63,557 bases of DNA, filler included, from Dugesia japonica (GCA_001938525.1; 5 parts of 5 records of this genome joined end to end with filler, not necessarily neighbours in it), one strand, 5' to 3'; numbered from the whole stretch's first letter, positions 12,497-37,110 are shown. The notes: generated by a model from the letters alone, not told the origin. A program made the numbers and translations.

Positions 12497-12530
12497 GTTC
12501 CTGAAGAAGACTATTTTCGAAAATTTGAAC
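12497..12530 (+). ncRNA. Minimal type I hammerhead ribozyme motif (PLE pseudo-LTR)
   Basis: GUUC-CUGAAGA-A-GAcuauuuUC-GAA-AAUU-U-GAAC. Helix I GUUC/GAAC, conserved core, palindromic AAUU helix III. Downstream of the PLE ORF end. Confidence 0.7.
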
Positions 12531-12719
12531 CTTTTACAAATAAATTTTATTTTGATCGAAGCTTTTTCTTATTTTAATGAAATCTTAAATTTTATGTGTA
12601 ATTTTTTCACGTGTAATTTTTTCTTAGTGTAATTTCATCTCTGAAATTTTATCCTCTGTAATTTTTAACAAAGTTAATTCCATAAAGTGTATATTTTGAA
12701 CTGATAAATTGAATTTTTT

Positions 12720-14725
12720 AGTGCACACAATTAGTCATAAAGGAATTCAAACTAACGATGATAAAAGTAAACAAAATTCTAGAAACATCAACTCCGGGTT
12801 GTGTTACACAGTTAAGATCCTTTTTGAGACTATACAACTATTATGAAATGATATCAGGAAATAAAAACCTACTCGAATAGTCCAAAGAGGATGAAAGTAG
12901 TTTCCAAAAGCTAAAATATGAATTATCCTAAGCACTAATATTAGCATTTCCTGATTCATTAAAAGAAATAATTTTAGACACTGGTACAAGTTTTGGAACT
13001 ATTGAAGCTGTTCTAAGTCAAAACGATTATAAAAGCGATGAACAGGTTTTGATTCGAGAGTTTTAAATTCTCATAAAACAAGGTTATTGTATAACCAGAA
13101 AAGAACTTTTGGTTATTCATGAATTTTTTATGCATTTCAAGCATTTTTTTAATTGGAAAAGTTTAAAATAAGGATTCGTCATAAAACTTAGACTTATATG
13201 AAAAAACCAACCAATTAGTTTACAGTTTCAAACTTAGTTTGCTAATTTTTCTTGATTTAATTTTGATTTAGAATATCGAAAAAGAACGGATCACTGTAAT
13301 GCTTATGGGCTGTCCAGAATTAACGAAACGCCCTGTACTTAATGTTTAACTAAACACCATGATAGTAAAGGAAATAAATATAAAGTTCGCTTTATAAAGA
13401 GTTTAAATAAAAATATATTTTATGTCGAACATATGGAAGAGTTAAAAAGCAATGTTGAATACTAAGATCAAAATCACGATGGTTACAAGGCTTGGATGAA
13501 ACTACTAATGAAAAGAAAAGCAAATATTATAAAAGTATAGGTAAATTCAAATTATTTAGGAATATTGTAATTAAAGATAATGAAGAAAAGATATTATTAT
13601 TCTCACCAAAATTAGTTAAATACTTACACGAAGAACTATGTTATTTGGGAAGCAAAAAGTTCTTGGAATATATCCGAGAGATATACGTTTGACCTGATAT
13701 GAGAAGAAATATCAAACACGAAATTCAAAAATGTGGAATATTTTCTAAATGAAAAGTCTACACTGATTGAACAAAAGAATTATTATTACCTAGAGAGGAA
13801 TTTGGGCCAATAGAAGTATAAAATTATAATAGATGTCGCCTATTTTTCTGAGTATAAGTCTATATAAAAGTACTTGCTTATTATTATCGATAAATTTTGC
13901 AAACTAGTCCTCTTAGTAAACAAAATAAAACAGCAATATGAGACTTTTTAAAAGAACCATTTAATTTACCGATTTGAAAAACAAAAATCAATCTTATCTG
14001 ATCGGGGTAAAATTTTTGAAGGTAGCAAAATGAACGATTTGTGTGGAAGATTTGGAATTACACAAGAATTCATATCACCTTACCAACTTCAGCCCTACGA
14101 TTTAGCAGAGAGAGTAATTAGAACAGTCAAAGATGTGTTAGTCACTTCAATGAATAGTAATAAGAATAGTTTTACTTGGGATAAATACATTCAGAAGATT
14201 GAATTATCCATTAATGCCACATACCAAAGCGCTGTTAAGAGATCTCAATTCGAAATTCTGTGTAAACGAAAAGTAATATTACATGGATTGTCGGGAAATG
14301 AACTTGCTAATCATAAAAAGGAGTTAATGAAACAAAAGTAGAACTAAAACGAGTTTCAAAGGAATTGAGAAAGTAGGAATCAGATACAATATGTCACAGG
14401 CAAATCTTAGTTGGTGAAAAAGTTCTTGTATAAAAAGAACATCATAATGTTCATAAACATAGAGACAGATATGAAAGTCCGTATACGATTATTAAGTTCT
14501 TAAGTTTCACAATTGTAATTATTACGAGAATAATTGTTGGACTTAACCATTGATCGTTTTATAGAATTCATTTAAAATAAAAGCTTTGATCAAAATTTAG
14601 GTTTTAATTATTGATATTGGATAACAATTTCGACCTTGTCTTCGTCAGGAATTGACTTTTTAAAAAACCAAAGTCAAGACAAATTGAATGGCTAAAACGA
14701 GTTTCAATTTCAATGGAGAGGGACA
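12720..14725 (+). mobile_element. Degraded Gypsy pol 3' half (RNase H, integrase, putative PPT)
   Basis: LAFPD..ILDT, GYCITRKELL, IIIDKF, ILSDRGK, AERVIRTVKD, ESPY, RQIEWLKR, then purine tract GGAGAGGGA at ~14714. Same family motifs as 42321-45680. Confidence 0.85.
14508..14657 (-). repeat. Solo hammerhead-bearing PLE pLTR-like repeat inserted in the Gypsy integrase tail
   Basis: Minus strand reads AATTC-CTGACGA-A-GAC-AAG-GTC-GAAA...TTTTGATCAAAGCTTTT...CGATCAATGGTTAAGTCCAACAATTATTCTCG. Confidence 0.8.
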
Positions 14726-17028
14726 TTAGAAAATAATGATTATTTAAAGAGTTAATTTTTTTAAAATAATACAAATTATACTATTCTTAAATAAATCACT
14801 AATATTAATGTTGAACCTTTTTACTAGAATAAAGTAATAATGTAGGTATAGTGAAAAGCCTAGGAAGACTGTTATGCTCTTGTTAAGTCAGTACACTGAT
14901 AATACTATTACTAAATATGGAAAACCAAAAATTATTAAATTCCAAAAGTCAACCAAAGCAGTGTAAATTGACTAGTTCAATTAGTTCGTTGAAAGACAAG
15001 AAAATGATCTCTCATGGTTTATTATAACATTAAAAACATTAGTTGTTACATTAATTTTATTATTAATACTGCAAAATATATTAAATATCTCAGTACTCAC
15101 AAGAGACAAGTAAAAAGGAAATATTTACTAGGTGTGCTAAATAAGATATGCGATCAATATGGATTTCTCAATGAAGAAACAGATCAAGTCGTGTCTCCAG
15201 CTCCAAAGCTGTTTGCTTTGACTTTTGCAAGAAAACTTGTATCGGCACCATACGCGTTAAATGTGTACAAATTGTATGACTGAAAAAAATTACCAAAAAA
15301 TGGTTTTAATCCATTGAATTTGTATTGTTTTATAAATTGAAGTTTTCGGTGTTAATAAGACATTTTACATGAAAAAATTATTAAATTTGATTTATATTAT
15401 TATTGACGAACAAAATTCGTTCTTACTCGTTAAATGTTTGTGTTTTTAAACTCATTATAAGTGGTAAATTAGTTATAAAATAAATAGTAACCCAAATAAA
15501 AACGCCACATACACCCCGCCAGCAAAGTTACAAAATTTGGAGTTTACGTATACTCGATTATTACTGAAAAAGATTTTTTTAAAAATCTACATCATTCTTT
15601 ATTCAAACTCTTATACTAGATTTTAAACTTCACACTTCATAAATTGGTTGACAACCCATTGCAAATCTGTCATTTCGAGATTCGGAAAGTACTTGAGAAG
15701 CGAAAATTTAAGAACGCTAGAAATTTTAAACAATTTCAAAGTTTTTAAACTTAAACTTTCTCGTGGCATATCGCTTGCCCGACAGTGATCTTAATCAATT
15801 AAAAATTGATAATTAAAGTTCTCTCATTCAATAAAATTATTCTTCATGGTTATTCTATATTACACTATTTAACAAATCCAATTTGAAGTTATAAGAGGGT
15901 CAATTATACTTTATCAAAGCTAAATGTTTAGTAATTGAATTTGTTGCCAACTCTGCTATATAAAGAAAACTTGAAGAGAGGAGAATGCTCTCAGTTTCCA
16001 AATCTTGGCTTTCTTACAGTAAAAATTTAACATTTTGACATTCTGATCTCAACTAAAGATATCAAAATATTTTTCAATTTATGTTACCCTATTATGTGGT
16101 GGATCCTTTAACAAATAGACCTACAAACTCAAATCAACTCATAATAATAAAGGAGCAACTTATTCAACAAATTAGAGAAATAATCTACCAAAATAAATTC
16201 CTTTAAAACATTATTCTGATAATAAGTCGGTTAATTTAGTTCTTTGTATTTAATGAAACAAACAAATATTTAATTAATTAATTAAATTTAACTAACAAAT
16301 ATTTTATTTAATTTGCGTTAAAAACAAATGCGAAAGTATTTTATTTTATATTTATAGAAAATATACGATAAATAAAAAGTATTTTAAAGTGCTAAATTTA
16401 AGTATTACTTACAATTTTAACTTTATGAATAATTTTCTTATCCTTTCTTAGTGGTACATTTATTCGATCGATTTTTATTCTTAATGAATTGAATTTTACA
16501 AATTGTCAAATCAATTTAGTTTTATTTAAAATTATTCTAGCACTTGAAATATTCAATTATTTTATAATTCAAAAAATGTTCATTTACGCTGTTAATTATT
16601 TCCTCAAGAAAAATATTTACCAATGAACAACAGGAGATAATTACTGATTTATTGATTAATTAGAAGTATCGGATTGATTGAATTTCTTATTAAAAATATN
16701 NNNNNNNNNNNNNNNNNNNNNNNNNNNNNNNNNNNNNNNNNNNNNNNNNNNNNNNNNNNNNNNNNNNNNNNNATTAGTAAAAAATAAAACATAAATAACA
16801 GTATATGTAGAAGATATTTAATTCAAAAAAATTATTTTTATTCAATTTAATTTATACATCTGGGTTTTAATTATAAAACGATCAGAGATGATAAAAGCGC
16901 TTTTAATATTCCTATCACGTTCTCAACCAACCCCATCAATCAATACGAGAATTGATTAGGTCAATGAGAATAGAGGAGGAATTCCGTCAAATGCATGAGG
17001 TCAATAACACAACATCGCCATAGAAAGA

Positions 17029-17575
17029 CTATCGATCAGATTGGAATAATGAGACCATATCCTTTACCCTACATAGGGTGGCTGATTCGGAATTTGCCAA
17101 ATTATTGTTATTATTAGCATTATTTGATAGTTCATTGTTATTAAGAGATTTCGTTTGAGAACTGGTATTCGTTTTTATTCGATCACTCGATGCTGATTTC
17201 GTTTTATCGAACATTTCGATTTTGAATTGTGGCAATTGTCTGGGCGGTTTGATAGGTGGATATGAATCATCTATTTTTGATTCTATTTGATCTTCATCAT
17301 TTTTGGTTTTAATGTTTTCTAGTAAACAAGGTGTAGGGGGAATGGTTTTTTTCCTTCCGGAGTTAGATTTTTGGATAAGAGAATGTGGTTTACCAATGTA
17401 ATCAATGGAATTTGATTTGTTAATTTTTCGTCTGATATCACAATTACTGGTTGATGATTTAAATGAATAATGTTCGTCTATTGATGCTGCTTTATTATTA
17501 TTTTCGTTATCAATTGAACACATTTCAGGCTTGTTTTTATCTCGTTTTGTCAATTTTGCTGATGCTTTAAAGAAC
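17029..17575 (-). CDS. PLEKHG1: PLEKHG1/3-like RhoGEF, terminal exon
   Basis: TTTAG acceptor at 17576-17578 is phase-compatible with the exon ending at 22266 (KR|FFKASAK). Low-complexity tail ends RVKDMVSLFQSDR*. Confidence 0.7.
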
Positions 17576-17757
17576 CTAAAAAATAAAATAAAGTATAAAG
17601 AATTTATTTCGAAAAGTACACTTGTTATAATAATAAAAAAATATCGGTGCTAATAGATTATCGATTTCTCTTATTTATACTGTTAAATTGATCTATCAAA
17701 CATGAGTACTTGAATTATCTTTGACTATTATTGCCACATTGTTAACTATTGATGGTA

Positions 17758-18098
17758 CAGGAAGACCTCTACTTTAGAACCTATATGCTTTAAAACCTCT
17801 CTAATTTAGAATGTCTTTACTTTGGAACCTCTATACTTTAGGCACTCTATACTTAAGAAACTCCTTAATTTAAAACCTCTCTACTTTAGAACATTTATAC
17901 TTTAAAAATTATATAATTTAGAACCTCTTTACTTATTAATCTCCTTACTTTGATACCTCTTTACTTTAGAAAACCTCCTGACACAGGAAAAAAGAACGCG
18001 CCTATCAATATAATTATCAAAATATTTTATTAAAAACCCTCTACTTTAGGATGTTTTTTGAAACGGATTTTTAATCGTGAAGTAAGGAAGTTTTCAGG
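17758..18098. mobile_element. TA-flanked pogo-like MITE with ~16-bp tandem subterminal repeats
   Basis: TA|CAGGAAGACCTCTACTTTAG start, about a dozen degenerate ACCTCTCTACTTTAGA units (17764-17975), and an imperfect inverted end AAGTAAGGAAGTTTTCAGG|TA. Confidence 0.65.
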
Positions 18099-19429
18099 TA
18101 GAAATCAATCGTAAACTATTGGAAAATCAAAGAATCATCAAATTAGCAAATGAATATGCTGCTAATTGTAGACGTAATCAATAATTGTTGTATTTGCATC
18201 ATTGTTCATATTATAGTAATAAACATGATCAGTAATATGAGTAAAATAAAATCTCTTTTGTGAAAGGATATAACAGATGCACACAGATAAAATGTATATT
18301 ATCAACATTAAAATTAACATCATAATATTTTATTGAATTTAAATATTTGATAAGCCATGATAAACGCATTGTATGGTAGGGATAACATTGGCTAGTAATG
18401 AGATCAAATCTGAGTCATTAACAAGCCAAATCAATTAACTCCACTTTGAATTTTTCTCTAAAGCACTTGATTTACTTCTAATCTTTTATATTTACATTGC
18501 ATTGCCATAACAATGATGATGTTTATTTGAATTTATATTTCAAATGGAATTTTATTAAGCAAAGCATTTATCTTATCAACTTTTTCCATTTTCTGTTTTA
18601 TGGAGTTAATCGATTTGACAAATGAGCAGCACTCTTACATCAAATTGTATTAAAATACTGATTATTATAGAAAGAATTACCATGCCCTATAAATTATAGT
18701 TTACGATGTCACGTAGCATTATTTCAAGATTTTAGAACAAAGACGATATTGTTATTTCAATGATGTTGTTATTACAGATAAATATTTGTGGAATTAGAAC
18801 TAAATGCGCAATTGTAATAGATCAAGCCTAATATACAATTCACATAATTGTTTAACACAGACAGTCTAATATGATCATCACAAGAACAAAATATAGATTG
18901 ATTGGACAAATTTAGTATAGCTGTATAAAAATGAATAAAATATAGAATAATTTTACGATTTCAACTGTGAATTATTTGGGTAAATTCTTAAGTAAACTTC
19001 CTCTGATGAATATTTTAATAATTTTTTTTATTTTCTTAAGTATTAAATATTTCCATCTCGAGAAGATTCGGTTTACCTGAAGAGATGCAATCATAGATAA
19101 ACCGTTGGAGATTAAATAATTATTAATTATTCTATTTAATGTTGGCTAATTAGAATTGTCAGAAAATAAAATTTTGTCGGTGGGATATTTTTTTAGTTGA
19201 AATAAATCTAACAAAATGCAATTTATTCATTAAGTTTCCATAGTGAATTCTAGTAACTAAGAAACTTGTAAAAATAATGCTTAAAAGAAACTTGACTAAA
19301 AAATCGATTATAAATAAGCATAAAAATATTAAATGAAATTAACTGTGTTATAAATAAATCCAATAAATAACCGATTATTTTAATCACTGATAATAGCGAA
19401 AGAATGAATTTAGAAAAACAATAATGACT

Positions 19430-20125
19430 CGAACATAGAATTTAATAAAATCAAACAAATTCGATAATTAAATTACCTTTTATTAATGAGAAATGTAGCC
19501 AAATTATGCAAAATATAATAAAAAAAATCTAAACTCAAACATAATTCAAGAATAATATTCAAAACGTAAGCACTATTTGGGCATCCAATTACAAAATCCA
19601 ATATAAAGCTTTTGTGGTCCCAAATGCATTTGTGATGGTAGAAATATATGCAATAAAACAAATATCACTTATATATAAAATAACATGCTCCTTATGTAAG
19701 GATACATATATAGGAGAATCATGCAGAACCATCCGAACAATAATTAAGGAGCATCTCAAACAGCAAGAAAGCGAAGCCTTCAAACACTTTCAACACAAAC
19801 ATAATATTTCACCGGAATAACATCATATAACATGGAAAACATTAGGAACAGGCTTAATTTCTATACTTCACCAGAAGAAACATGGAGAATTATTAATCAT
19901 AGAGGATAAACCTAAAATCAATGTAATTTATAATAATTAAAATAAATTATCCGAAATTGTTCAATGAAATTTCAATTAAAGAAATTGTGAATTTTTCTAA
20001 TTTGGGTTGGATTAATCAAAAATTTAAATTCCTGAACAATACAATAGTCGAAAATTCGGATAACTATTAAAAAAGAAAAAAAAACAAAACATCATTTTGA
20101 TCGAAGCTTTTAATTTGATGAAATT
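19430..20125 (+). mobile_element. 5'-truncated Penelope-like element: GIY-YIG endonuclease plus pLTR with decayed hammerhead
   Basis: IYKITCSLCKDTYIGESCRTIRTIIKEH. AUUC-CUGAAcAAuAC-AAUA-GUC-GAA-AAUU-C-GGAU at 20028-20061, about 95 bp after the ORF end. Confidence 0.88.
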
Positions 20126-20891
20126 TAATAATGACTGTATTTAAAATAAAACTTGTTGAGTATTATTATAAAACATTAATGTTACGATTTAACAGATGAC
20201 ATCGATTAACATTGATACATAATTATAAAAAATATATGACATTAATATAAAAATCAATTGACATTTTATGACAAAATAAGTCATTTAAAACCCAAGATAT
20301 TTAAAATTTTGACAAATTTTCATTTAACAAGGTCACAAAAATTACTGCACCATTGTTAATAATTTTATTTCCTATTATTATTTTATTAAGCACCGAATTC
20401 AAACAAAAATATATTGAAAAGAATTTAAATATTAATCCAAACACATCAAGAGTTTGAAAGTTTTCAAATATTCTTTTATAAAAGCGTTTCTATTATTAAT
20501 TTTATTGATTGACTTACTTATTTCATTGAATTAATTTTAAAAAATCTGATTACTTATCTATTTATTTATTAATTATATAAATAAGCATAAGTAAAATTCT
20601 CAAAAGAGATCCACTGTCTGACCATTTAATTCGAATATTTTAAAAATGAAACGGAAAACTTCGATAATTAAAAGAAATAAAAAGAATAAATTAAAACTAA
20701 ATGTCCCGATTTATACGGAGGTGATTATAAATATATTTCAAATTTTATCTGAGTTTACTTCTTTTAGTGGAGAAAATTCAACTTTAATCAATATTCCACT
20801 TCTATTTTGCAGAACTTTAATTCATAATTTCTAAATTTTGAGTAAGATTTTTTCTTGTTTATATGGGTAGTATTTATAGAAAAAAAACATG

Positions 20892-21041
20892 CATTAAAAT
20901 AAAAGCTTCGATCAAAATTTGTTTTTTTATGTTTTTGATAATAATTCTAATTTTAGACTTTTCTGAATTGACTTTCCTGACGAAGACAATTTCGATCAAT
21001 GGTTACGTCCAACAATTATTATCGCAATAATTGCAATTGTA
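20892..21041. repeat. Rearranged (inverted-junction) copy of the hammerhead pLTR repeat
   Basis: A minus-oriented segment AAAATAAAAGCTTCGATCAAAAT...GAATTGAC is joined to plus-oriented TTCCTGACGAAGAC and CGATCAATGGTTACGTCCAACAATTATT. Confidence 0.75.
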
Positions 21042-21479
21042 TAAAATAACATTACTAATGTTAGGCGAGTTTGGAGTAATCATCGGATCATCAATATCAA
21101 AATTCAACTCCATAGAAAAATTTATTCGAAAACAAAACTATAAACATATATTTGCTTTTTTCAAAAAAATTTAAAAATTCATATTTAAAAGCGAAAATAA
21201 TAAATATCATTTTAGCATGTCAAATATTTTAATTTTCAAATTTTATTACTATCAAATTTTAAAATACACTAAAATTTAAATAAAAATTTGACTTTAATAA
21301 ATTCCGGTTTAAAACACAAAAAATTTAAATCTGTTTTAAAAAACTATCTTATAATTAAAATTCATAAAAGTTTTCAAATTTAAGAGGTAAAATTACAATA
21401 TTAAAAATAAATACAATACAATAAACAAATTAATTTATGGTTTTTTAATAACATTTTTATTGGGTAATTAAAAAAAATA

Positions 21480-21690
21480 CTGTTATCAATAAATTTATTA
21501 TATTACGAATTACACAAATTTTAGGTTTATATTTTTGGATTAATATTGCATCATTATTTTTCCTGTTAGTTGCTAAAATGTAACTAGTTGTTAGTTGTGC
21601 CAATTTTATATAATAATGTTCCGGTGATATTTCGTATTTTGAAAATGTGTTCTTTAATTTAGTGTTCTTTAAATGTTTTTTGTTATGGTT
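21480..21690 (-). mobile_element. Penelope-like GIY-YIG C-terminal relic
   Basis: KHL...ISPE...RKNNDAILIQKYKPKI resembles the PLE endonuclease end (EA.LI...KP.IN). Confidence 0.5.
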
Positions 21691-21697
21691 ACAATAA

Positions 21698-21712
21698 ATC
21701 ATCATCATCATC

Positions 21713-21771
<59 letters not shown>

Positions 21772-21821
21772 NNNNNNNNNNNNNNNNNNNNNNNNNNNNN
21801 NNNNNNNNNNNNNNNNNNNNN

Positions 21822-21866
<45 letters not shown>

Positions 21867-21912
21867 TATTATAATTATAATTATAATAATAATAACAATA
21901 ATAATAACAATC
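21698..21912. repeat. (ATC)n(AAT)n compound microsatellite
   Basis: Direct reading; includes an N gap. Confidence 0.95.
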
Positions 21913-22265: not shown

Positions 22266-22924
22266 CTTTTAACGATTCCCGGTTTTTGATCCGTTTCAAA
22301 CAGAGATCCCCAATCGCTATTACTTCTTGTTGTTTTAGATTCACGCACACTAGAAAATAGCACTTTTTTTCTATGAGAATTATTATTATTGAATTCCTTC
22401 GATGTTGATGAATTAGTATCGATACTACTATTGAATGAATTTGCTTTAGTACAGAGTGAGATTCCATAATTACGATCCATCGATGTGGTCTGTAAGCAAT
22501 AGAAATGTAGTTATAAATGAATTTCTAATTTAACCTTGAGTTTATGGACATTATTACTATTGGTGCTATCACTTGCCACTGAATCTAAGTCAGCGTCGGA
22601 ACAGAGGGATGCAAGTTCCATTTCTCCCAGAAGAACGCTGGAATTATCAGAATTTTCATGCATTTGTTTTAGAGGTTGAAAAATTTCTTTTATATCATTA
22701 GTAGTAAGTCTAGTTTTATTCCTCGATTTTTGGATAAATGGTTCATATGCTTGTTCTTGATGACTAAATGGTTGACCATTGTGACTATAGAAATTCTCTT
22801 CGTTTACGTCAATCATAATTGATCGACAATCAATATCATCATTAACACAATGTTTCCTAGCTGACCATTGATATATACTTGGATCACGATAATTGGTCTT
22901 AGATTCCGACTTGATAGCGCCGAC
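22266..22924 (-). CDS. PLEKHG1: PLEKHG1/3-like RhoGEF, internal exons (22535->22924 into gap; 22266-22489)
   Basis: Open frames joined by a 45-nt GT..CAG intron at 22490-22534. Donor at 22265 is phase-matched to the last exon. Confidence 0.72.
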
Positions 22925-25218: not shown

Positions 25219-28200
25219 CTGTGAAGAAAATGATTCAGTTAATATATTACACAGGAATACTCATAATTTGTGAGTAACATTAGAATTAGATCATATTCAG
25301 TTCAATGAGCAAATATTTGATTTGACAAAAAATGATTAATGATTGCACATCATTAACAAATATTGTTAACATATTTACATTATTTATTTACACGATTTTT
25401 TTAAATTGATATTTTATAAAAGAAATATTCAAATCAGTTTGGATATAGAAAGTTTATATTTAGTGGACACTGCCTTATAGAATACTATGAAATGACAGAT
25501 TAAAAAAAATAATGAAAATAATTTTATCGTAATTACATAATCATATAAAATTAGATTAAAGTTACTAGTCGGGGATTACTTTTTACATAATTCCTTCTTT
25601 ATCTATATAAGAACTTGTCGATAGTCAGTTTGCCTCCACTAAATAAGTAAATTATAGTTATTTAAATAAAGACAATTTAGCAAATAAAATTCCATGAAAG
25701 TTTTGTATGGTTTGCATTAACATTTACTGTGAAAAATAAAAGTGCTCGATGACCCTGGTGCATTTTATATAGTACAATATATGATCAAATAAAAATTTAA
25801 AGCCTTCAAAACTTGATGTGCACTGTAAGTGTGTGTTAAAAAAGCAAGTTAAATTTTTTGCGTGATTGGTGTTTAAAAGAAAGATTTAAAGTTTTGATAA
25901 ATAAATAACAAAAATTTATTTTAAATGATAAATTAAAATTTTCAGTAAACGGAAATTTATTTTAATTTTAAATAAATAAATAAAATTGTTTGAAATAAAT
26001 TAAATTAAAATTATGTTAAATAAATTAAGTTTCAATTTCAAAAATTCAAAAATGATGATTGGATAAAAAAGTAAATTTTTAATAAATAAAATTTTCAAGG
26101 TGAAAGAAATTGCTTAAATTTTAAATAAATAAATTACAGTTTTAGATTTTGAAAAATGATCACCAATGAANNNNNNNNNNNNNNNNNNNNNNNNNNNNNN
26201 NNNNNTGTTGGTTATAGTTTTGATTTTCAATAAAGTGTTGTAATGAATTCGAATTTTGATATTAATGATACGTTGAGTTTTCCAAAGTCAACTAACATGC
26301 ACTTTAAAAATAAATATGGCAATTTAGATGCTGATAATAATTTTAAAATTTTGAAGTTGATAGAAATCATACATTTCCAAATTTTTAGTTTAGTGAAGTT
26401 GACTAACAACTATATAGCTTATCCAGTTTTTGTACTCAATTAGTGTTTATTAGAATTTATAAGGCTTAAAATGATAAAACTGTTACTTGATAATGAGGTG
26501 TAGACAAAAATAAAACTAATTACATTTCAAATGACGTAATTTCTGAAAGGATTGTTTATGAGTTTGGATATTTTACGGCATGTAATTACTGATTTGTTAA
26601 ATCTAATCAAAATAAGTTTAATTTCTAAAAAGCTTTTCTCTGAAACTAGCAAAAAGTCTTCGGCACTTCATTGAACTCTTAAGCATTAACTTAATTAATA
26701 ACTATCAATCAACTTTAAAGTGTTTTAATACATTATTTAAGCATTTCTTAATGTATTCCATGTAATGATGTTTATATTACCTTTATATAAATTGATTTTC
26801 AATTAATTAGATTATTTTTAAGATTGATTTAGAAAGGAGAGAAGAAAAGGTTTTAGTGGTGTAAATAGTTGAAAGGGTTAAAAGCCATTATATCAGATAG
26901 TAAAGACTTGTTTTTGAATTCAAAAAATACAAAATCTGTAAAAAATTTAAATGGGTTTTATAATAAAAATTTCTACAATTAATAAAACCAAACTTTATCA
27001 AATTTTCAGAAATGAATTTTAGACTTTTAAACCAGCTTGAAAAGAAAACATAAATTGAATAAACTGAATTTAGTTTGAAATAAATTTATCAAAGTTCATA
27101 AAAATAATCAAATAATAATTGGCTAATTAATTAATAATAATTAACAATCAATTAATTATTAATAATAATTAATTAAAAATATGCAATAAAATAGTTAAGT
27201 TTGAAATAGCTTCAATTGCTAGTTATAAAATGCATAGGGAAATGATTACAATTCCAACTTAGCAAGATCATTTGTCATAAATACCAAAATATTCAGTCTT
27301 AAAAAATTCTTAAAAGACTCCAATGTTACAAATATTATCAAATATAAATAATACTTTCAATAAAAATTATTAATTATTTGATTTATAATGAGATACTAAC
27401 AAAAAATTAAACCAAATCTTGTATAAGAAGCAAAACAGAGTAAAACATCGATTTTGTGATGACACAAAAATCTCACAAAATTTTTCATGTTTATAATATC
27501 AATGTCATCCGTTTATTAATATTAATATAATCGTGCAGCATCTCTTTATTTTACCGTTTTAAAATTACTATTTGTGATATAAATAGTAATATAGAATAAA
27601 TATTTATTAAATACTATGAAAAAATGACAAAATTTGCATAATAATATCGATTATGGTTCAGTGAGATTATTACGGTAGTCTAGATTATAGTATAATGATG
27701 ATTTCATAAATATTTTGTTGTCCATAGTATAGGTGTAACACATATTTTGTGGTAAACGTGGTCACCATATTATATTAAATTTATTCTATACATANNNNNN
27801 NNNNNNNNNNNNNNNNNNNNNNNNNNNNNNNNNNNNNNNNNNNNNNNNNNNNNNNNNNNTTACTTTATCATACATACATACAATCAATAATCTAATTTAT
27901 TTACACTAACAATGAAATATGGTTATCTAATTAATTCACAGATAATGATATTCTTATGATTTTTTTAATAAATTTATGAATAATATAAGATTGTTTGTTA
28001 TTGTACTTTCAAAATTATAATTTTGCATCAAATTGAAATTAATTCAACCTCAATAATGTATGAAGAAATAACTTCATATTTTATTAGCAAACCTATTACG
28101 AATTTGCAATAAACTTTTAAAACATAACTCGAAAGATAATTGGAAATCCTTTCCTATAAATCAATATTTCAAGTCTTAAATTGTAAAACGATAAAATGTC

Positions 28201-28389
28201 AAGAAAGATAGGAAGGATATAAACAAAAAAAAACATCTGTATATCAAGATTTGGAAAAATGTCTAAAAGTTTATACTTTTTGTTCAGTTTTAGTAAATTA
28301 AAAGGCTTATATCAATTGATTTTTTTGTAAATTCTTCTCAGAAATTCTAATTTTTAACAATGGTCTTCTTTAGGGATTTATTTAAAAAA

Positions 28390-28541
28390 ATTCCTGAAGA
28401 AAACCATCTTTAAAATTTCGTATTGCTAAGAAAACATAAAAAAATACATTATTTTGATCTAAGCCTTTTGATTTATTAAACTTTAAAAAAATATCAATGT
28501 TTAAGTCCAACAATTGTTCTCGCAATAATTCTTGTTATTGT
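28390..28541 (+). repeat. Solo decayed hammerhead pLTR-like repeat
   Basis: ATTCCTGAAGAAAAC...TTTTGATCTAAGCCTTT...ATCAATGTTTAAGTCCAACAATTGTTCTCGCAATAATT. Confidence 0.72.
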
Positions 28542-28659
28542 AAAACTGTTTGTTCATTGTTCAACTTCATTTGTTTTCTAGAAAATCTAATTTTTCTTCA
28601 ACTAACAATTGGAAATACTTTATTCAAAAAGGGGATCTATAAAAATTATATCACACCAC

Positions 28660-28736
28660 AATTATTCTATTTCCTTAATAAAACATTTCGACAATCGATA
28701 CAAACCGATAAAATCATACGGATTTATCAATTTCAG
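28660..28736 (-). repeat. Intronic partial duplicate of RhoGEF exon sequence 29981-30057
   Basis: 77-bp direct repeat with only a handful of mismatches (CGACAATCGATACAAACCG.TAAAATCATACGGATTTATCAATTTCAG). Confidence 0.9.
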
Positions 28737-29741
28737 ATGAAATACTGAATAAATATGATAAATCTTGTAGATTATTCCATCATTAAGTTAAAATCAAAAT
28801 TGAATTTAAACCAGCAAATAATATAAAATTTGTCATATTAAATCTATTAGTCATAATTGACCAGAATCACAAAATGAATCATATATTTACATAGCACAGA
28901 AACCGTAACACTATCTAATAATTCGATTTGAAAATATTAAATAAATATTGAATGATATAGTAAGACAATAAATAAATTGTAATTTTTTTCTCCTTCAATA
29001 ACAAGAGGATTAATCAAAAATGGAAAAGAAATATTTTAATAGTATCTTATTAATTTATTATATGAAATTTAAAATGACGTTTCTGTTCACGATAAATGCC
29101 AGACAATAACTAAATATTTGGCACATTAGAATAAGATTGTTTGAATATTTCTCAAAAATTGATAAATCAAATGTATTAATAAAACAAGACAAGCATATTA
29201 CTCATTATTACAAACTAGCCTTTTGAGTAATACAGTTAAATCCAATTGTTGTTCAAACCACAATGGTCAAACTAAATGTCAAATTCAACTGAATGAATCC
29301 ATAAAGTTGAATCGGAATGCGGTATATTTAACCCTTTGTTGCCTGAGATAAGTAAGAATTGAAAATTCACGACTTTTTAAAAAATAATTTCATTTTAGGG
29401 TTCAATATAGACTGTAAATATTTTTCAATTTATTTTATTTTTTTTTCTTTAATTTTTTTAGGGTTTTATATGCGATTCACGCATAGTACTCAGATGTTCG
29501 TATATTCAAATGTAATTCACAGAAAATTATATAACAAAATCATTTGAAAATCAAAAATCTCCGGAACAATTTTTATTTTCAATTAATTTTATTTATTTTA
29601 ATGAATCACGGTTTAATTATTAATTAATTTTTGTTAAATGAAAATTAATACACTTAGTGTAGTCAATATTTTTTATTTTATAAAAACCTGAATAAGTATA
29701 GAGAAGGTAATAATTAGTTATATCAATAAATTGAATGTTAC

Positions 29742-30073
29742 TTTGAGTAGTAGATGATATCTCAAAATTCTTTGAACGGGTTTAAGAAGGAATGTACTAA
29801 GGGGTAACTGGTGTCCTAATTGTATTTGGCACTTAATAAGGCTTTGCCATGTGTAGGATGAAGTGGTTTCCATATGATGTAAATGCTTGACAGACCTGAA
29901 CAGAAAAGTAGTACGTGAAAACCAATTTATTTTAAACAAACTGTGTATAATTTGTACAATATTCGGAATAAAGATTTTCGAATTGTTCTATTTCTTCGAT
30001 AAAACATTCCGACAATCGATACAAACCGCTAAAATCATACGGATTTATCAATTTCAGTTTCTCCAGGAAAACC
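29742..30073 (-). CDS. PLEKHG1: PLEKHG1/3-like RhoGEF, DH domain exons (29942-30073, 29742-29895)
   Basis: LYSEYCTNYTQSV and LGHQLPLSTFLLKPVQRILRYHLLLK, the DH CR3 motif typical of the PLEKHG1/2/3 family. 46-nt intron. Confidence 0.92.
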
Positions 30074-31599
30074 CTATAAATAAATAAAATTGAATATTTG
30101 ATAAATTATAATTGATTTTTCAGTTATTAAAAATTTAGTTTATTTCAATAGCATGACTTGAATTTCAAACAATTCAATAAATGCAGTGGGATTTATCAAT
30201 ATTAAAAATATCAGCAATCTATGAATGTTCTTGTAACTAAAAATACATTTAGTAGCAGAACATGCGAACAGATATTGTTGATTGAATGAACTGGTATTTA
30301 TGTGAATTGATTATCATCACTATATCATTTAGTTACTCCACCTCCCCACTCACCATTCCAAAGTCAATATACATGAACAAACACAAATAAATAAAAAATA
30401 AGCTTTACTGATTTGCATAAATAAAATCGTTGCTCATTAAATCAATAATCGGCGTCTTTCATAAGACAAGCATNNNNNNNNNNNNNNNNNNNNNNNNNNN
30501 NNNATTCATCATCTCAGTGGAATGGAATGATAATTTGGATATTTATGTCAAATTAATAATGTCAATCAATATAATTTTAGGCATGTCGACAAACGATTTT
30601 TTCACGATAAATATGTTGATTGTAGAATTTTTCTAATGGAAAATGTGCATTTCTCAGACTATGTAGTATGGATTTGAATGATAATGAATTTCAGTGATAA
30701 TGAACGATTACTATTGACTCGGTACCATCCGTCAAAAATGACGGTTTGTAAATGAAATTTTAATAGTCAAAAATTTCCACAATGGTCTGAAAAAATTACA
30801 AAATTTTAAATATTAACAAAAATAAACTTAAAAAAATTTATGATAATCCGTTAATGCTATGTCGTTAGAATACCAAGGGTGTTGAAGAACCTACTCTTGT
30901 AGCTTTTTGACAATAAAAAATAAAAGTATATGTCTAAAATGCTGTTTAATTTATTTTTTTTAATTTATTGTTTAATTTGGCATTGCATTTGTAAAAGCTC
31001 CAGGATTTTAATCAAATTTATTAACATGTAAAAAATACTTAGATTTTGTAGACCACAAAAATGGATTTTAAATAAATGTTATTTTACAATAATATAACAA
31101 ATTTTTAAACAAACTACAATTTGCAATAAAATCAAATCCAGGAAAATTATCTTACAAACAAATATGTTCAATGAAATTAATAATTAAGCTTCGAGTTATG
31201 TAATTTTAACAAATACTAACGTTTATATTAATAAGAAATTGTGTTGATTTACAATTTATTTTTTTTCTCTATAATGCGTTTGATTTGAAATATTTTTTAC
31301 TGGTACTCTTTCACAATTTTTTATAATTTGATCCAAAACTTTATTACATATTTGTTATAAAAATAACAGTCAATTTAAAATTTATTTATTTGTGTCACTA
31401 AGATATTTTCACTTTATCATAACTTCTAAAGGTTTATTTACATTAAATTTTTATATAAAAATAAAGTTTGCATGAAAATAACAGTTATTTAAACTTTACA
31501 TTTATATTTCTATAACTTATATGAACTTTGAAATAATTTATATAACCTTCATAACTCGAGCGTTACAGACAAATTTACATACATACCGACGTATAAAAT

Positions 31600-31638
<39 letters not shown>

Positions 31639-31651
31639 AAATGTGTGTGTG
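31600..31651. repeat. (TA)n(TG)n microsatellite
   Basis: Direct reading. Confidence 0.92.
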
Positions 31652-31781
31652 ATAATAAAAGCAATAGTTACAATAAGAAAGCATTGTTTGCAATATTACA
31701 AAACATGAAAATTCCAAATATTCTTTATCAATAATTAGAATCGATATTTATTTTAACTTAATTAGCAAATAATTATCTTAC

Positions 31782-31873
31782 GAATGAAATTCACGCAGAT
31801 CCTTCCAGTTTGAGAATATGAGTGCCACTTCTTTGTCACCCATAAATAACGAATTTGACATTTTCAAATAACC
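31782..31873 (-). CDS. PLEKHG1: PLEKHG1/3-like RhoGEF, DH exon (gene 5' end lies beyond the contig break)
   Basis: CAG|GYLKMSNSLFMGDKEVALIFSNWKDLREFHS|GTAAG; DH IFxN...FH motif; phase matches the next exon. Confidence 0.88.
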
Positions 31874-32409
31874 CTGAAAAATAAATTTTTAGTATCAACA
31901 AAATATTTATAATTTATTAATATTTAATCATTAATAACCCTTCAGCATTCAAATATAAAAACTGGTGTTAATTCTAACAGACATTTTGCTGGGGGGAAAT
32001 AATTAATGGTATTAGAAAATATAAAATATAATAAATTACAAATTTCATTACAAACCCAATTTTTCATGATAACTGAAAATAATTATATTATTCGTACAAA
32101 TGACAAAATTTTAAATAGTATTCTATCTTTGATTGTTTATTTATTGTGTGAAATGAGTTAGTAACAACATTTTCTGTACCAAAATAAGAAGGTATTTCTA
32201 GAAAAATTTTGATAAAATATACAATGAGAATCATTGTCTAGAAAATAGAAAAAAATTATTATTTTATACTAATGCATTAACCACTTAACCCGTAAATAAT
32301 CAAAAATACAAAAATCATCCACCCTTTCACCTTTTTAATGNAGGAATATCTAATAGAATTTCACTACAATAAATGCACATCCAGGCACATTTAACTACAT
32401 CGGTTTCCT

Positions 32410-32560
32410 ATACAATTACAAAAATTATTGCAAGAATAATTGTTGGATTTAACCATTGATCGCATTAATAAAGTTTCAATAAAATAAAAGGTTTAGATTT
32501 ACTGAAGACTATCGTCAAAAATTCGGATTGCTAACAAAACAACATCGGTTCGATTGCTTA
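32410..32560. repeat. Rearranged copy of the hammerhead pLTR repeat
   Basis: Minus-oriented AATAATTGTTGGATTTAACCATTGATCG is joined to plus-oriented TGAAGAC-TATC-GTC-aAA-AATT-C-GGATT. Confidence 0.72.
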
Positions 32561-32823
32561 TATTATTTCAAAGAAAAACTATTTCATATATTGATGTCTT
32601 CATTAATCTGGACACATTACATTTTATTTGGTTCAACTTGAAAAAATAAACTAGTTAATAGATTTTTTAAAAAAATGTTAATGTTTTTAAAAAGATTAGT
32701 TATTCATAAAAGCTTTTTTATTAAAAATTAAAATTTTAATCAATATACTTTTGAAAAACTGAAGAGGTAATAGAATTGTGGTTTTATCTAATCAAAAGAA
32801 ATTTATTATTGTGACAATGATAT

Positions 32824-32923
32824 NNNNNNNNNNNNNNNNNNNNNNNNNNNNNNNNNNNNNNNNNNNNTTAATTAATTAANNNNNNNNNNNNNNNNNNNNN
32901 NNNNNNNNNNNNNNNNNNNNNNN
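32824..32923. other. Artificial contig linker
   Basis: 44N-TTAATTAATTAA-44N. Confidence 0.97.
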
Positions 32924-34246
32924 TAATATATATATAATTAAATATTATATTATTAATATTTAATATATAACATTTAATATAATAAAAATATTTAAAATTG
33001 ACTTTTTAGTTAATTTGGATGTTTGATAAATTAATGATTTGATGCGTTTTCATACAAAAGATTAAACAATTTGGTGATTTTCATGAAATTTTTGTTTTAA
33101 TTCTTTGAAAGTTATTCTTGGATTCTCTTCAACATACTGCTCCATAAAGACATGGTATTCAGCAGAAATTATGGATCTTCTCCTTTCACAACGTTGTTTT
33201 TCGTTTTCTTGTTGATTGATGCATCGGTAAGCGGTGGGTATTTTTACTCCTAATGTATTTTTAAGTGATCTCAGTCTCCATTATTATTATATAATGTACA
33301 AAGTTGTTTTTTATTTAATAAAAATTGAAGTTTATTTCAACTTCAAATAAATTATTCCCGATGTGAACATGTTTATTCTCAATTTGAAATTGTTTATTCC
33401 CAATTTGAAGTTGAAAAGGTATAGATCAGCTTATACAGACAAATAGAAACCCAGTTCATTANNNNNNNNNNNNNNNNNNNNNNNNNNNNNNNNNNNNNNN
33501 NNNNNNNNNNNNNNNNNNNNNNNNNNNNNNNNNNNNNNNNNNNNNNNNNNNNNNNNNNNNNNNNNNNNNNNNNNNNNNNNNNNNNNNNNNNNNNNNNNNN
33601 NNNNNNNNNNNNNNNNNNNNNNNNNNNNNNNNNNNNNNNNNNNNNNNNNNNNNNNNNNNNNNNNNNNNNNNNNNNNNNNNNNNNNNNNNNNNNNNNNNNN
33701 NNNNNNNNNNNNNNNNNNNNNNNNNNNNNNNNNNNNNNNNNNNNNNNNNNNATTGATTAAATTAAAAATAAATATTTAACATCTGTAAGAATAAGAACTG
33801 TCAAAAAGTTTAGTTTGATGGATTGATAATTGCGTTGAATGTTTACGTGAAATACACGTGAATTAATTAAATAGATAAATCTATTGAAAATAAATTACGT
33901 TTTATACAATTGTCAAATACGTAAGATATGTACTTTGAAAATTAAAATGAACTTTACAATATGTAATTAATGAATAAAGTCAAAAAAACTTAATATTGTC
34001 ATTCATAAAAATCTNNNNNNNNNNNNNNNNNNNNNNNNNNNNNNNNNNNNNNNNNNNNNNNNNNNNNNNNNNNNNNNNNNNNNNNNNNNNNNNNNNNNNN
34101 NNNNNNNNNNNNNNNNNNNNNNNNNNNNNNNNNNNNNNNNNNNNNNACCAATAATTTTACAGCCAATGTAAACTGAAATTATTTTCGTGTAGTTCTAAAT
34201 CAAGAATGTTTAATTCAGTCCAACACATATTTTAGATTTCTATGTA

Positions 34247-34598
34247 TTAGGGTGAGTCTTTAAATTGTGGACACTTTTTTGCTTTGTATTGCATTCGAAA
34301 AAACTCATCAGTAAATATCATTTACATATTTATTGTTATACATCAGATCTATGGCACATTTCTAGCATGGAAGAACCTTTGTAAATCTAGAAAACGTGGA
34401 AATCAAGTGTCGTAAATTTTGAGTCTAAAGAAAAGGGATGTTATCGTCGTGGAATAGGAACTTGCACAACTTTGATTCAATGTGTTGAACATAATGGCGT
34501 TTATTTTGAAATATTATCTTTTTTAGTCGTTGAGTTATACATGTTGAAAGTTTNNNNNNNNGATTAAATGCACCCACGAACTTATGATTCATCTTAAT
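34247..34598 (+). mobile_element. Short mariner relic
   Basis: TA|TTAGGGTGAGTC start, C-terminal YRRGI...QCVEHNG motif, and a right end CACGAACTTATGATTCATCTTAA|TA. Confidence 0.55.
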
Positions 34599-34884
34599 AT
34601 GTATTGACTATTACTGTTAATTAATATCTACTAAAAATTTATTTAAAAACTACCGCTTCACAATCGTAATATAAAACGACATTCATTAATTTAATTAATT
34701 TCATTTAACACTAAATAAATTAATATAATATATCACAATTACATTTTTGTGTAAGTCAGAAGTTCCAAAATGTTCATCACTCTTGTTCGAAATGTTATGA
34801 ACGAATCAGTAAATATAAACCACTTTTAAAAATTTTAGTTTTAGCAGTAAATTTAAATTCATACAGCAAATATAAACTTCATAC

Positions 34885-35020
34885 CATCCTGGATTTTCAA
34901 ATATGTTTCTAGCAATAGGAGCAGGTGTGATGCAATTATTATATCCCATACCAATATATGAACGCCATACTTCATTACGATCCGCGATCCTTCTAAGGTT
35001 TATGATTAACTCTCCTTCAG
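34885..35020 (-). CDS. GLDC: Glycine dehydrogenase (decarboxylating) P protein, exon 3
   Basis: EGELIINLRRIADRNEVWRSYIGMGYNNCITPAPIARNIFENPGW with TAG/GT boundaries. The rest of the gene is lost in gaps or at the contig end. Confidence 0.95.
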
Positions 35021-35117
35021 CTAAAAAAATAATATATCATAATACATGCTATTTACAAATTCCAAAAAGTTTTCATGAATGTAATGATTTAAACTTCATG
35101 ATAATTATTATTAATAC

Positions 35118-35259
35118 TGCTGATTTTACTCAGAAAACTATTATTCTCAATTAAAAATTTTTTATTAATTATAAATAATTTTAATAAGCTTAGCAAAAAT
35201 TATTAATAAAATTTAAAAATTTTTAATTGAGAATAATAGTTTTCTGGGTAACATCAGCA
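35118..35259. repeat. Long inverted repeat (hairpin/palindromic MITE-like)
   Basis: ~44-bp arms TGCTGATTTTACTCAGAAAACTATTATTCTCAATTAAAAATTTT and its near-perfect reverse complement. Confidence 0.9.
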
Positions 35260-35482
35260 AGACTTCAGATTTTTTGATTCCAAATTTCGTAATTATGAAA
35301 TTATAAATTTGCAATAATTCTATTAACAAATATTTTATTTTTAAAGTATTTTTATTTTAATATTTAAAAATTATGTTAATTAAAATTTTTGAATATTTTA
35401 AATTAGTATTTTTTTAATTTTAAAAAATTTTAAATAATTAATTATTAAAATTAATTGTTTTAGGAAATAAAATTTCAAAATA

Positions 35483-36449
35483 TTAGGCAGTCCAATATGA
35501 AATTGCGGATTTTTAATATAAAATTATTCTTATTCAAAAATATTCAAATGCAATAGTTGTTATAAAGCGCTATATTCGTATTTCCCATCATTGAAAAAAT
35601 AAGCATATAAATTTAAAATTGAATTTTTTTTAATTTTAAAGATATTACAAAAGAACAAATTCGAGTGTCTTGTATGATTTTTAACTGAATCCTATAGCAA
35701 CGGAGGGAAGTCGCAACATAAAATCGGCATAGAGTGAAAACAGAGTAAAATAACGTACAGCACAATTTTAGATCAAAAGATTTCAAGATGGTGACATGAG
35801 CTTGGAAAACATAGATCGGTTACTCGGTTAAATAATGGTGAATTGAAGGCAACTATTGAAGCCGATACTCGTAAAATATTTCGAACAGTCAAACATTTGC
35901 ACAAGTGTAGTGTTTATTCAAAGAAGATGATTATTACTATATGGTGGTCTATGGCTGGATTAATTAATTGACTTCTTAAACCTGATGAGGCTGTTACTGC
36001 GCAATCATACCGTAAGGAAATTAATATCACGCACGAAAGGCTGCTTCAAAAACAGCTGGTGCTTGTAAATTGAAATTGGTCAACGTTAGATCACATGTGT
36101 ATCGATTAACCGTACACAAATGGCATGAATTAAAGTATGATGTTTAATCTCGCCCACCTTATTCGCTAAATCTTTCACCATCAAATTATCACGTGTCCAA
36201 GTATATAAATGCATTTCTTACCAATGAGATCTTCTGCGACCTAAGTGCCATTCAAAAATGACAGCTTAGTTTTTCGAATCAAGAAGTCCTACATTTTATC
36301 AAAAAGGAATCAATAAATTAAATCATAAAATTTGCAAAAGCCTATTAACAGCATTGAAACATATTTTGATTAATAAATTTATTTAGCAACTCTTTATGAT
36401 TTGTTATTCCTACTGTTTAAATTCCGCAATCTCATATTGGACAAACTAA
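35483..36449 (+). mobile_element. Internally deleted mariner element in GLDC intron 2
   Basis: TIRs TTAGGCAGTCCAATATGAAATTGCGGA and TCCGCAATCTCATATTGGACAAACTAA with TA TSD. Relic motifs KRFQDGD, ITIWWS, PPYSLNLSPSNYH. Confidence 0.9.
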
Positions 36450-37075
36450 TAAAAAATTAATTTACATTATTAGTTAAATTTAAAGTCACACAAGTCTCCA
36501 TAAATTGTTTATTGATTATTACAAGTCTTTTATTAAAATTAAAAATATGAAATAACATTTCACAAATTTNAAACAAATAATCCGAGAAATCTTAAAATAT
36601 TTNTCAAAAATGTTGATTTTTTTAAATACCAAAATACTTTTATATTTAATTATTTTTAAAACTTAATTTTACCAAATAATGTTTATAATTTTATAATTTA
36701 ACATAATATAAATATCGACTTTAATTTTAAAATACCTTTATTATTTTTTAAATCTATTTTTTACAAAATAATTTTTATAATTTTATACTTTAAAATTTTG
36801 AAATACTTTTATTTTACGATTATTTTTTTTTTACGTTTACAAAATAATTTTTATAATTTCATAATTTTGTCTAATTTAATATATAGACTTTATTCAATTA
36901 ATTTGTACTTATTATAAATTATTTTTTTATATTGAAAATTTTATTTCCTGAATCAATTATGAAAATTAATAATTTAAAAATAATAAATTTCATAATTTAA
37001 TAAATCATTAAATAGACTTAAAATTTCAATAAATTAAAAATCGATGAACAAAAAAATTTTCATTAATTATTCAAG

Positions 37076-37110
37076 TAAATCCATGAAGACTGTTGTCGAT
37101 AACTTGGATC
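37076..37110 (+). repeat. Highly decayed hammerhead pLTR copy
   Basis: AATCC-ATGAAGAC-TGTT-GTC-GAt-AAcT-T-GGAT matches the family consensus with a 2-nt core deletion. Confidence 0.5.

What the first reader, a model, noticed from the sequence alone, without database searches (positions are those of the whole stretch)
12497..37110. Dispersed ~150-bp repeat family encoding a minimal hammerhead ribozyme (Penelope pLTR / retrozyme-like unit)
Seen: about seven related copies (12497, 14508 minus, 20028, 20975, 28390, 32503, 37076). Their consensus is AUUC-CUGANGA-A-GAC-(3-4 nt)-GUC-GAA-AAUU-C-GGAU, followed by TTTTGATCGAAGCTTTT and CGATCAATGGTTAAGTCCAACAATTATTCTCGCAATAATT. Two copies sit downstream of same-family PLE ORF ends and the rest are solo. 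Established: PLE pseudo-LTRs carry minimal type I hammerheads whose palindromic helix III forms in dimers. Inference: this is an unannotated ribozyme-bearing family at roughly one copy per 9 kb here, possibly amplifying non-autonomously. No single copy is flawless.
Basis: partly seen in the sequence, partly recalled or inferred. Interest (0 to 1): 0.8.

Follow-up and report, generated by a model that had tools for sequence, protein, structure and literature searches.

The report
Penelope retroelement ends with hammerhead relics
The repeat is real, but it is the end piece of an abundant Penelope-like jumping gene: a minimal hammerhead ribozyme motif of a kind described in 2014 plus the first 17-19 codons of the element's own gene; every copy here is damaged, and it is likely not a separate mobile family.

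Summary
Observation confirmed and extended: 10 related arms at 7 loci, not 7 copies. The motif fits the published minimal type I hammerhead of Penelope-like elements (PLEs); 0 of 9 arms that overlap it are intact. The unit is therefore a PLE pseudo-LTR plus tail. Three loci are ORF-less head-to-head pairs flanked by 9-12 bp direct repeats. Arms stop either just before the ATG or at codon 17-19, which fits published two-site internal reverse-transcription initiation. No head-to-tail monomers were seen, no arm starts at the cleavage site, and no RNA ends piled up there, so the retrozyme or independent-mobility reading is not supported. About 54,000 contigs per DNA-type run were laid, nearly all on family sequence; their loose ends show helix III AUAU against AAUU in window copies, both palindromic. 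Cleavage was not tested. New member of a known kind.

The parts
10202..11920 (+). PLE remnant 1: 5'-truncated, frameshifted RT-linker-EN ORF, partly N
   Evidence: tblastn to P0001 aa 268-739, HSPs 52-83% identical; stop position
12493..12585 (+). pLTR arm; best hammerhead in the window (C3 at 12501, H17 at 12526; one helix II mismatch; helix I GUUC/GAAC); stops just before the ATG position
14506..14664 (-). 159-bp pLTR+tail insertion into a multi-copy host repeat; C3 at 14648; 7-nt deletion removes the cleavage site; ends at codon 19; no target-site duplication
   Evidence: empty-site joint 14505-14665 in 6 and 4 contigs and 1 and 15 RNA reads
19430..20126 (+). PLE remnant 2: linker + GIY-YIG end (stop 19938-19940), 3' pLTR with hammerhead (C3 at 20032; G8 and G10.1 changed), ends just before the ATG position
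   Evidence: exact 10-bp direct repeat at 19420 and 20127
20891..20972 (-). short arm of inverted pair (core deleted, 3' half of hammerhead kept)
20973..21042 (+). long arm of inverted pair (core, internal deletion, ORF codons 2-17)
   Evidence: flanking repeat 9 of 10 at 20881 and 21043, background 6.4%
28287..28383 (-). short arm of inverted pair (C3 at 28373, 3 deviations)
28384..28544 (+). long arm of inverted pair (C3 at 28394, decayed; ORF codons 3-19)
   Evidence: flanking repeat 11 of 12 at 28275 and 28545, background 1.2%
32406..32497 (-). long arm of inverted pair (leader + ORF codons 1-17, no hammerhead)
32497..32541 (+). very short arm of inverted pair (hammerhead with 3-nt deletion and G12 changed)
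   Evidence: exact 9-bp flanking repeat at 32397 and 32542, background 1.5%
37075..37139 (+). old decayed arm
   Evidence: E 4.4e-5 with a profile that excluded it

Best explanation
The repeat is the pseudo-LTR plus tail of an endonuclease-bearing Penelope-like retroelement: a minimal hammerhead motif, an AT-rich leader and the first 17-19 codons of the element's RT-GIY-YIG ORF, and the short copies are likely dead by-products of that element's own reverse transcription. Shown: homology of the last block to the ORF start, adjacency to an ORF end within one insertion, head-to-head pairs inside 9-12 bp direct repeats, two classes of 3' end, and decay of every window copy. Inferred, by analogy with Poseidon of Anolis (PMC11167929): the protein nicks both strands of AT-rich DNA and starts reverse transcription inside its RNA, either just before the ATG or about 55 nt after it. 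Starting in the downstream pLTR of a tandem transcript would give 5'-truncated ORF copies (19430-20126). Starting in the upstream pLTR would leave only about 160 nt to copy, giving solo arms, or two arms joined head-to-head when both nicks prime. The templates were likely uncleaved RNA, since arms keep sequence 5' of the cut site. The hammerhead of intact elements is predicted to cleave weakly, as a dimer or with protein help (about 0.55, untested).
For: [quoted passage not shown] It is 72% identical to the window RT piece and 63 of 88 residues identical to the EN piece. Its residues 1-19 match 4 of 4 long arms at 75-78%, and the match stops at residue 17-19. Four other arms stop about 5-11 nt before the ATG position, read by eye from the alignments. 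Flanking direct repeats occur at 4 of 7 loci, with background 0.35-6.4% each. In the lay, contigs continue from the 20028 arm and the 20.9k short arm into the ORF-start block (joints 14554/14557 with 20124, 7 and 7 contigs in X1; 20892 with 20993, 12 contigs in X1). Two of the 15 listed joints are head-to-head junctions from other loci (14660 with 20928; 14665 with 20094). The EN region is itself very abundant: bin depth 417k against 10.7 for single-copy contigs. Loose ends at 14627 (295 and 312 contigs, agreement 0.75 and 0.72) read GAA-AUAU-C-GAAUU, restoring a palindromic helix III and a 5-bp helix I. Published matches: in Adineta PLEs the pLTR holds the first 12 codons, 22 with the tail, with inverted pLTRs and 8-10 bp TSDs (PMC3846280 passages); opposite-strand min-HHR pairs are described in PMC4209133.
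Against: No full-length element was seen as DNA; P0001 has no context and may come from a sister family or species. 0 of 9 arms are intact; CUGANGA is exact in 5 of 9 and GAAA in 3 of the 8 that carry it. Covariation among window copies is weak: 79% of cells paired, 4 pairs with double changes, 21 of 500 shuffles as high, with 2 of 7 rows misaligned. The hammerhead fold is thermodynamically disfavoured: monomer probability 0.005, dimer -1.2 against MFE -14.6 kcal/mol. One frequent contig variant reads GUAU-G at helix III, which is not palindromic (table 5c). The 159-bp insertion has no TSD, and TSD windows were placed after seeing the sequence. The distance between the two end classes (about 60 nt) exceeds the 30-40 bp tail in the literature. 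Per-position conservation of the core genome-wide was not shown, because 422 rows of the difference table were cut.
Confidence: 0.88

Rival explanations
1. The short units are an independent non-autonomous family (retrozyme- or SINE-like) derived from the pLTR, re-amplifying from their own transcripts with PLE protein in trans.
For: ORF-less arms outnumber ORF-linked ones (8 of 10 in the window). Summed contig depth over the leader/tail is about 4.5 times that over EN (174k against 39k single-copy units; rough, not a copy number). The unit is present in RNA-seq on both strands (X22: 270 sense, 193 antisense). A 2026 preprint derives tandem retrozymes from pLTRs (10.64898/2026.07.22.740005).
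Against: TRF finds no tandem array of the unit among 50 rows. No head-to-tail joint appears among the 15 listed of 880. None of the 8 ORF-less arms starts at the cleavage site. The three pairs differ in length and junction (152, 258, 136 bp), as separate events would. Units stop at the presumed RT start, and in Anolis Poseidon the RNA needs about 55 nt beyond that point to be used (PMC11167929).
Confidence: 0.08
2. The hammerhead resemblance is a non-functional fossil or a coincidence of AT-rich sequence; the block is kept only as promoter, leader or protein-binding sequence.
For: No Rfam hammerhead hit; no intact copy; unfavourable folding; no RNA end pile-up at the site in 2 runs (table 6); helix III is all A-U.
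Against: It matches every feature of the published consensus at the expected pLTR position. Descriptor hits fall on family copies far above shuffles. Helix III switches between two palindromes (AUAU, AAUU) and helix I among AUUC/GAAU, AUCC/GGAU and GUUC/GAAC. Known PLE hammerheads also cleave poorly alone and show no RNA-seq ends (PMC11167929).
Confidence: 0.04

Closest known systems
Minimal hammerheads (min-HHR) in pLTRs of metazoan Penelope-like elements (Cervera and De la Pena 2014, PMC4209133; main text parts 1-2 of 4 and supplement parts 1-2 of 3 read)
   Same: CUGANGA, extra nucleotide before G10.1-C11.1, GAAA-NN'-U-H with no loop 3, 4-5 bp helix I, AT-rich flanks, mostly solo copies, opposite-strand pairs. 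AUAU-type (Nematostella, Schmidtea, Latimeria rows) and AAUU-type (Crassostrea row) helix III and a 3-bp helix II (C. briggsae row) are all in Fig. S3.
   Different: This sequence family was not among the Fig. S3 rows read; helix II is at the short end of the range; density is about one locus per 9 kb in this window.
Adineta vaga Penelope pLTR + tail architecture (PMC3846280, passages read)
   Same: ORF start inside the pLTR/tail, head-to-head inverted pLTRs, optional tail on one arm, 8-10 bp TSDs, solo pLTRs.
   Different: Here three TSD-bounded inverted pairs have no ORF body between the arms, and the two end classes lie about 60 nt apart rather than about 31.
Poseidon of Anolis carolinensis, internal RT initiation (PMC11167929, parts 1-2 of 4 read)
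   Same: Genomic ends at fixed points inside the ORF start, downstream of the hammerhead; uncleaved RNA as template; no RNA-seq ends at the cleavage site.
   Different: There the ATG lies in helix II and the RT starts are at +111 to +118; here the ATG is about 70 nt past the hammerhead and ends are near -5 to -11 and +51 to +57.
Non-LTR retrozymes (PMC7229834, passages read; bioRxiv 10.64898/2026.07.22.740005, part 1 of 5 and passages read)
   Same: Short unit with a type I hammerhead, related to a pLTR.
   Different: Retrozymes are head-to-tail tandem repeats, mostly with canonical hammerheads, giving circular RNA; here the motif is minimal, the pairs are head-to-head and the unit carries ORF codons.

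Membership tests
PLE minimal hammerhead | CUGANGA core, then one extra nucleotide, then G10.1-C11.1 | tested here: met
   core exact in 5 of 9 arms; extra A in 5 of 5 full-length parses; G10.1-C11.1 intact in 12501
PLE minimal hammerhead | GAAA followed by a self-complementary 15.2-16.2 pair, U16.1 and H17 | tested here: met
   AAUU-type in window arms; AUAU-C in the loose-end majority of 295 and 312 contigs; one frequent variant breaks it
PLE minimal hammerhead | Helix I of 3-5 bp with compensatory variation | tested here: inconclusive
   three pairing variants seen, but few rows; 21 of 500 shuffles reach the double-change count
PLE minimal hammerhead | Self-cleavage as dimer or with protein | not testable with these tools
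   folding disfavours the active form; no end pile-up in 2 RNA runs
Rfam hammerhead families | Covariance-model match | tested here: not met
   no hammerhead family listed in 3 scans
EN+ Penelope-like element pLTR/tail | Single ORF with RT and C-terminal GIY-YIG | tested here: met
   P0001: RVT_1 E 7e-7, GIY-YIG E 2.8e-4 just under the cutoff; window remnants match it
EN+ Penelope-like element pLTR/tail | Hammerhead-bearing repeat downstream of the ORF and ORF start inside the repeat | tested here: met
   C3 lies 92 bp after the stop at 19940; 4 of 4 long arms encode residues within 1-19
EN+ Penelope-like element pLTR/tail | Inverted head-to-head arms, tail on one arm, short TSD | tested here: met
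   3 pairs, each with one tail-bearing arm; direct repeats at 4 of 7 loci
EN+ Penelope-like element pLTR/tail | Full-length element flanked by two pLTRs | not testable with these tools
   no genome held; no DNA context for P0001
Non-LTR retrozyme | Head-to-tail tandem monomers | tested here: not met
   none in the window; none among 15 listed of 880 joints
Non-LTR retrozyme | Circular or unit-length RNA | tested here: inconclusive
   standard RNA-seq only, one run oligo-dT, 6% and 25% of the runs read; no such joint or end listed
Hydra clade of PLEs (PMC8557442, section 11) | DKT motif and CxCX5C linker | tested here: met
   both present in P0001, P0003 and P0012
Hydra clade of PLEs (PMC8557442, section 11) | CCHH motif absent from EN and divergent RT4 | tested here: not met
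   P0001 keeps CxxC and two histidines in EN and an ordinary-looking RT4, judged by eye; no tree against named clades, so the clade is unplaced

The most novel reading that the evidence does not exclude
The ORF-less, TSD-bounded head-to-head pairs, with one arm ending at codon 17-19 and the other before the ATG, are a genome-wide fossil record of two-strand, two-site priming by a Penelope protein. At tens of thousands of loci they would allow the integration geometry to be read directly from one genome, and some pairs may have become a self-propagating palindromic mini-element. The driving element may also be an unplaced lineage mixing Hydra-clade and Nematis-like motifs.
Probability: 0.2. Interest if true: 0.5.

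Novelty: new member of a known kind. Interest (0 to 1): 0.25.

Why it matters
It adds one more genome flooded with PLE minimal hammerheads and explains the dispersed 150-bp unit without a new element class. The useful part is mechanistic: two discrete 3' ends, TSD-bounded ORF-less inverted pairs, and 5' ends upstream of the cleavage site are what internal reverse-transcription initiation on uncleaved RNA predicts, so this family is a large natural data set for the open questions of how PLEs integrate and what their hammerhead does.

Tried and rejected
No own genome was held, so there is no genome-wide BLAST or covariance model. Rfam: no hammerhead hit in 3 scans. Exact hammerhead patterns found 0 matches in viral contigs and 0 in metagenome contigs. 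The search for related loci with P0001 gave 2 loci at 27% identity, not used. A homologue search with the 91-aa EN piece found 0 of 19 candidates; the RT piece found 11 of 272; the representative search gave 129 unnamed hits, used only for a motif comparison of six of them. No listed holder was on record as RNA; two raw RNA runs added by species label were laid instead. The column-majority fold is discarded because one voter row was offset by two bases; one search is used. A MITE reading was rejected because the arms carry PLE coding sequence and are unequal. A TSD linking remnant 1 with the 12497 arm was not found (best 9 of 10 in T-rich sequence in wider windows). Lunse et al. 2017 was not held and is known only through a review passage (PMC6765202); it may list closer variants. 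Two short family peptide motifs were absent from the PMC8557442 supplement text. A search for Penelope + non-autonomous + head-to-head + target site duplication returned 1 general review; that does not show the pairs are undescribed. Supplements of the bioRxiv preprint were not seen. Earlier-findings look-ups by sequence and place were empty. The host species was not identified.

Full report
1. Observation. The window is 25% GC with 2,700 N, and no genome is held. Self-BLAST, nhmmer and motif scans recover all seven cited places and three further minus-strand arms. A profile from 8 arms finds the two arms it was not built from at E 2.8e-9 and 4.4e-5; the best control hit in a reversed window and 5 shuffles was E 0.079.

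2. The hammerhead motif. Parsed by position, the arms read helix I (4-5 bp), CUGANGA, A, GAC, a 3-4 nt loop, GUC, GAAA, two self-complementary bases, U, H, helix I'. This is the published min-HHR consensus (PMC4209133; main text parts 1-2 of 4; supplement parts 1-2 of 3), whose Fig. S3 already holds AUAU and AAUU helix III and a 3-bp helix II. Descriptor hits exceed shuffles: 1 against 0 at up to 1 deviation and 2 against 0.03 at up to 2, over 30 shuffles. A looser Cervera-type descriptor also finds only 12501 at up to 1 deviation, with no shuffle control. None of the 9 arms that overlap the motif is intact: CUGANGA is exact in 5 of 9 and GAAA in 3 of 8; 4 of the 5 GAAA defects hit G12, which sits in a CpG. 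Pair counts on 7 rows are only suggestive (79% paired; 4 pairs with double changes, 21 of 500 shuffles as high; two rows misaligned). Rfam finds no hammerhead. Folding disfavours the active form, in line with the low or protein-dependent activity reported for PLE hammerheads.

3. Genome-wide view from reads. Laying two contig sets and two raw RNA runs on 14400-21100 at 80% likeness placed 53,931 and 54,378 contigs. Bin depth is 982k over the 14508 unit and 417k over the endonuclease region, against 10.7 for single-copy contigs in X1. Scaled, that is about 174k, 62k and 39k single-copy units for leader/tail, hammerhead core and EN. The tool states these sums are not copy numbers, so I take them only as very high copy, plausibly 10^4-10^5. 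Loose ends before 14627 (295 and 312 contigs) show that the 14508 copy has lost 7 nt and that its relatives mostly read GAA-AUAU-C-GAAUU, a palindromic helix III and a 5-bp helix I. Of three distinct bridging sequences listed there, two have AUAU and one has GUAU. A joint skipping exactly 159 bp (14505 to 14665) is the empty site in other copies of the host repeat, with no duplication. RNA covers the unit on both strands (X22: 270 sense, 193 antisense), while the neighbouring gene exon is strand-specific (45.8 against 0.62). Table 6 lists three end pile-ups, none at a cleavage site. Tables were cut (422 differences, 865 joints and 4,424 loose ends not shown).

4. What the unit is. The RT remnant at 10893-11252 retrieved P0001, 843 aa and 72% identical, with RT and C-terminal GIY-YIG matches and 63 of 88 identities to the EN remnant. 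I had noted the possible ATG before this search, from the Adineta pLTR layout (PMC3846280 passages). Four other arms stop about 5-11 nt before the ATG position (by eye); the 32503 arm stops earlier and 37076 is unclear. Remnant 2 plus the 20028 arm lie within an exact 10-bp direct repeat. The three inverted pairs lie within repeats of 9 of 10, 11 of 12 and 9 exact bases, with background rates of 0.35%, 6.4%, 1.2% and 1.5% in 2,000 random window pairs; 3 of 7 loci show none, and the windows were set after inspection. Each pair is therefore likely one insertion made of two head-to-head pLTR arms with no ORF body.

5. Mechanism. Shown: anatomy, homology, ends, flanking repeats, abundance and decay. 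Inferred from PMC11167929 (parts 1-2 of 4), where a PLE protein cuts and extends both strands and starts reverse transcription at two internal sites on uncleaved RNA: the two end classes are two RT starts; priming in the upstream pLTR yields only about 160 nt; priming from both nicks yields the inverted pairs. Seven of the 8 ORF-less arms (12497 counted as ORF-linked) begin a few to 16 nt upstream of the core and none at the cut site, so cleavage did not define them. Copies ending at the RT start would lack downstream ORF sequence that the Anolis protein needs, and would likely be dead on arrival.

6. Comparison and verdict. It works like, and meets the tested features of, the pLTR/tail with min-HHR of EN+ Penelope-like elements. 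It fails the tandem test for non-LTR retrozymes (definition from PMC7229834 passages, and the 2026 preprint). The clade is unplaced: DKT and a CxCX5C linker resemble the Hydra clade, but the CCHH residues are kept. Earlier scan notes on other genomes reached similar verdicts; they are leads, not support. New member of a known kind; interest 0.25.

Noticed in passing
window 21502-21681 (-), 22429-22617 (-), 60977-61186 (-): Further PLE fragments of more distant families: an EN end at 41% and an RT piece at 34% to P0001, plus a weak EN hit. No hammerhead was seen in the 330 and 260 bases printed downstream of the first two.
   Followed up: partly
P0001, P0003, P0012: Motif mix of DKT, CxCX5C linker and retained CCHH, between the Hydra clade description and Nematis-like elements.
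   Followed up: partly
window 19947-19955 and 20054-20062 (+): Nine bases just after the stop of remnant 2 are exactly complementary to the cleavage-site region of its hammerhead; could be an alternative, inactivating pairing or chance (seen).
   Followed up: no
window 13459-14750 (+) and 42300-45600 (-): Gypsy-type LTR retrotransposon remnants: rve E 0.004 and RVT_1 E 3e-32; the first appears to be the multi-copy host of the 159-bp insertion.
   Followed up: partly
window 49067-51889 (+): Long run of ORF pieces separated by single stops, part of which resembles Sin3 corepressor sequence (recalled; Pfam gave no such hit for the one piece scanned); possible retro-pseudogene.
   Followed up: no
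window 35118-35259: 142-bp palindrome, 86% self-complementary, MITE-like.
   Followed up: no
window 1335-1451, 21060-21175, 26206-26296: A second dispersed repeat family, about 79% alike; one copy abuts the 20.9k inverted pair.
   Followed up: no
window 5332-5589 (+), 34809-35036 (-), 7104-7848 (-), 33065-33280 (-): Thioredoxin exon (E 3e-17) and glycine cleavage P-protein exon (E 1.5e-13); Tc1/IS630-like transposase remnants (weak Pfam hit E 0.046 for one, the other recalled).
   Followed up: no
window 11921-12492: About 570 bp of very AT-rich spacer between remnant 1 and the 12497 arm; Adineta Pen1 elements have a captured spacer before the 3' pLTR, but no TSD links the two here.
   Followed up: partly
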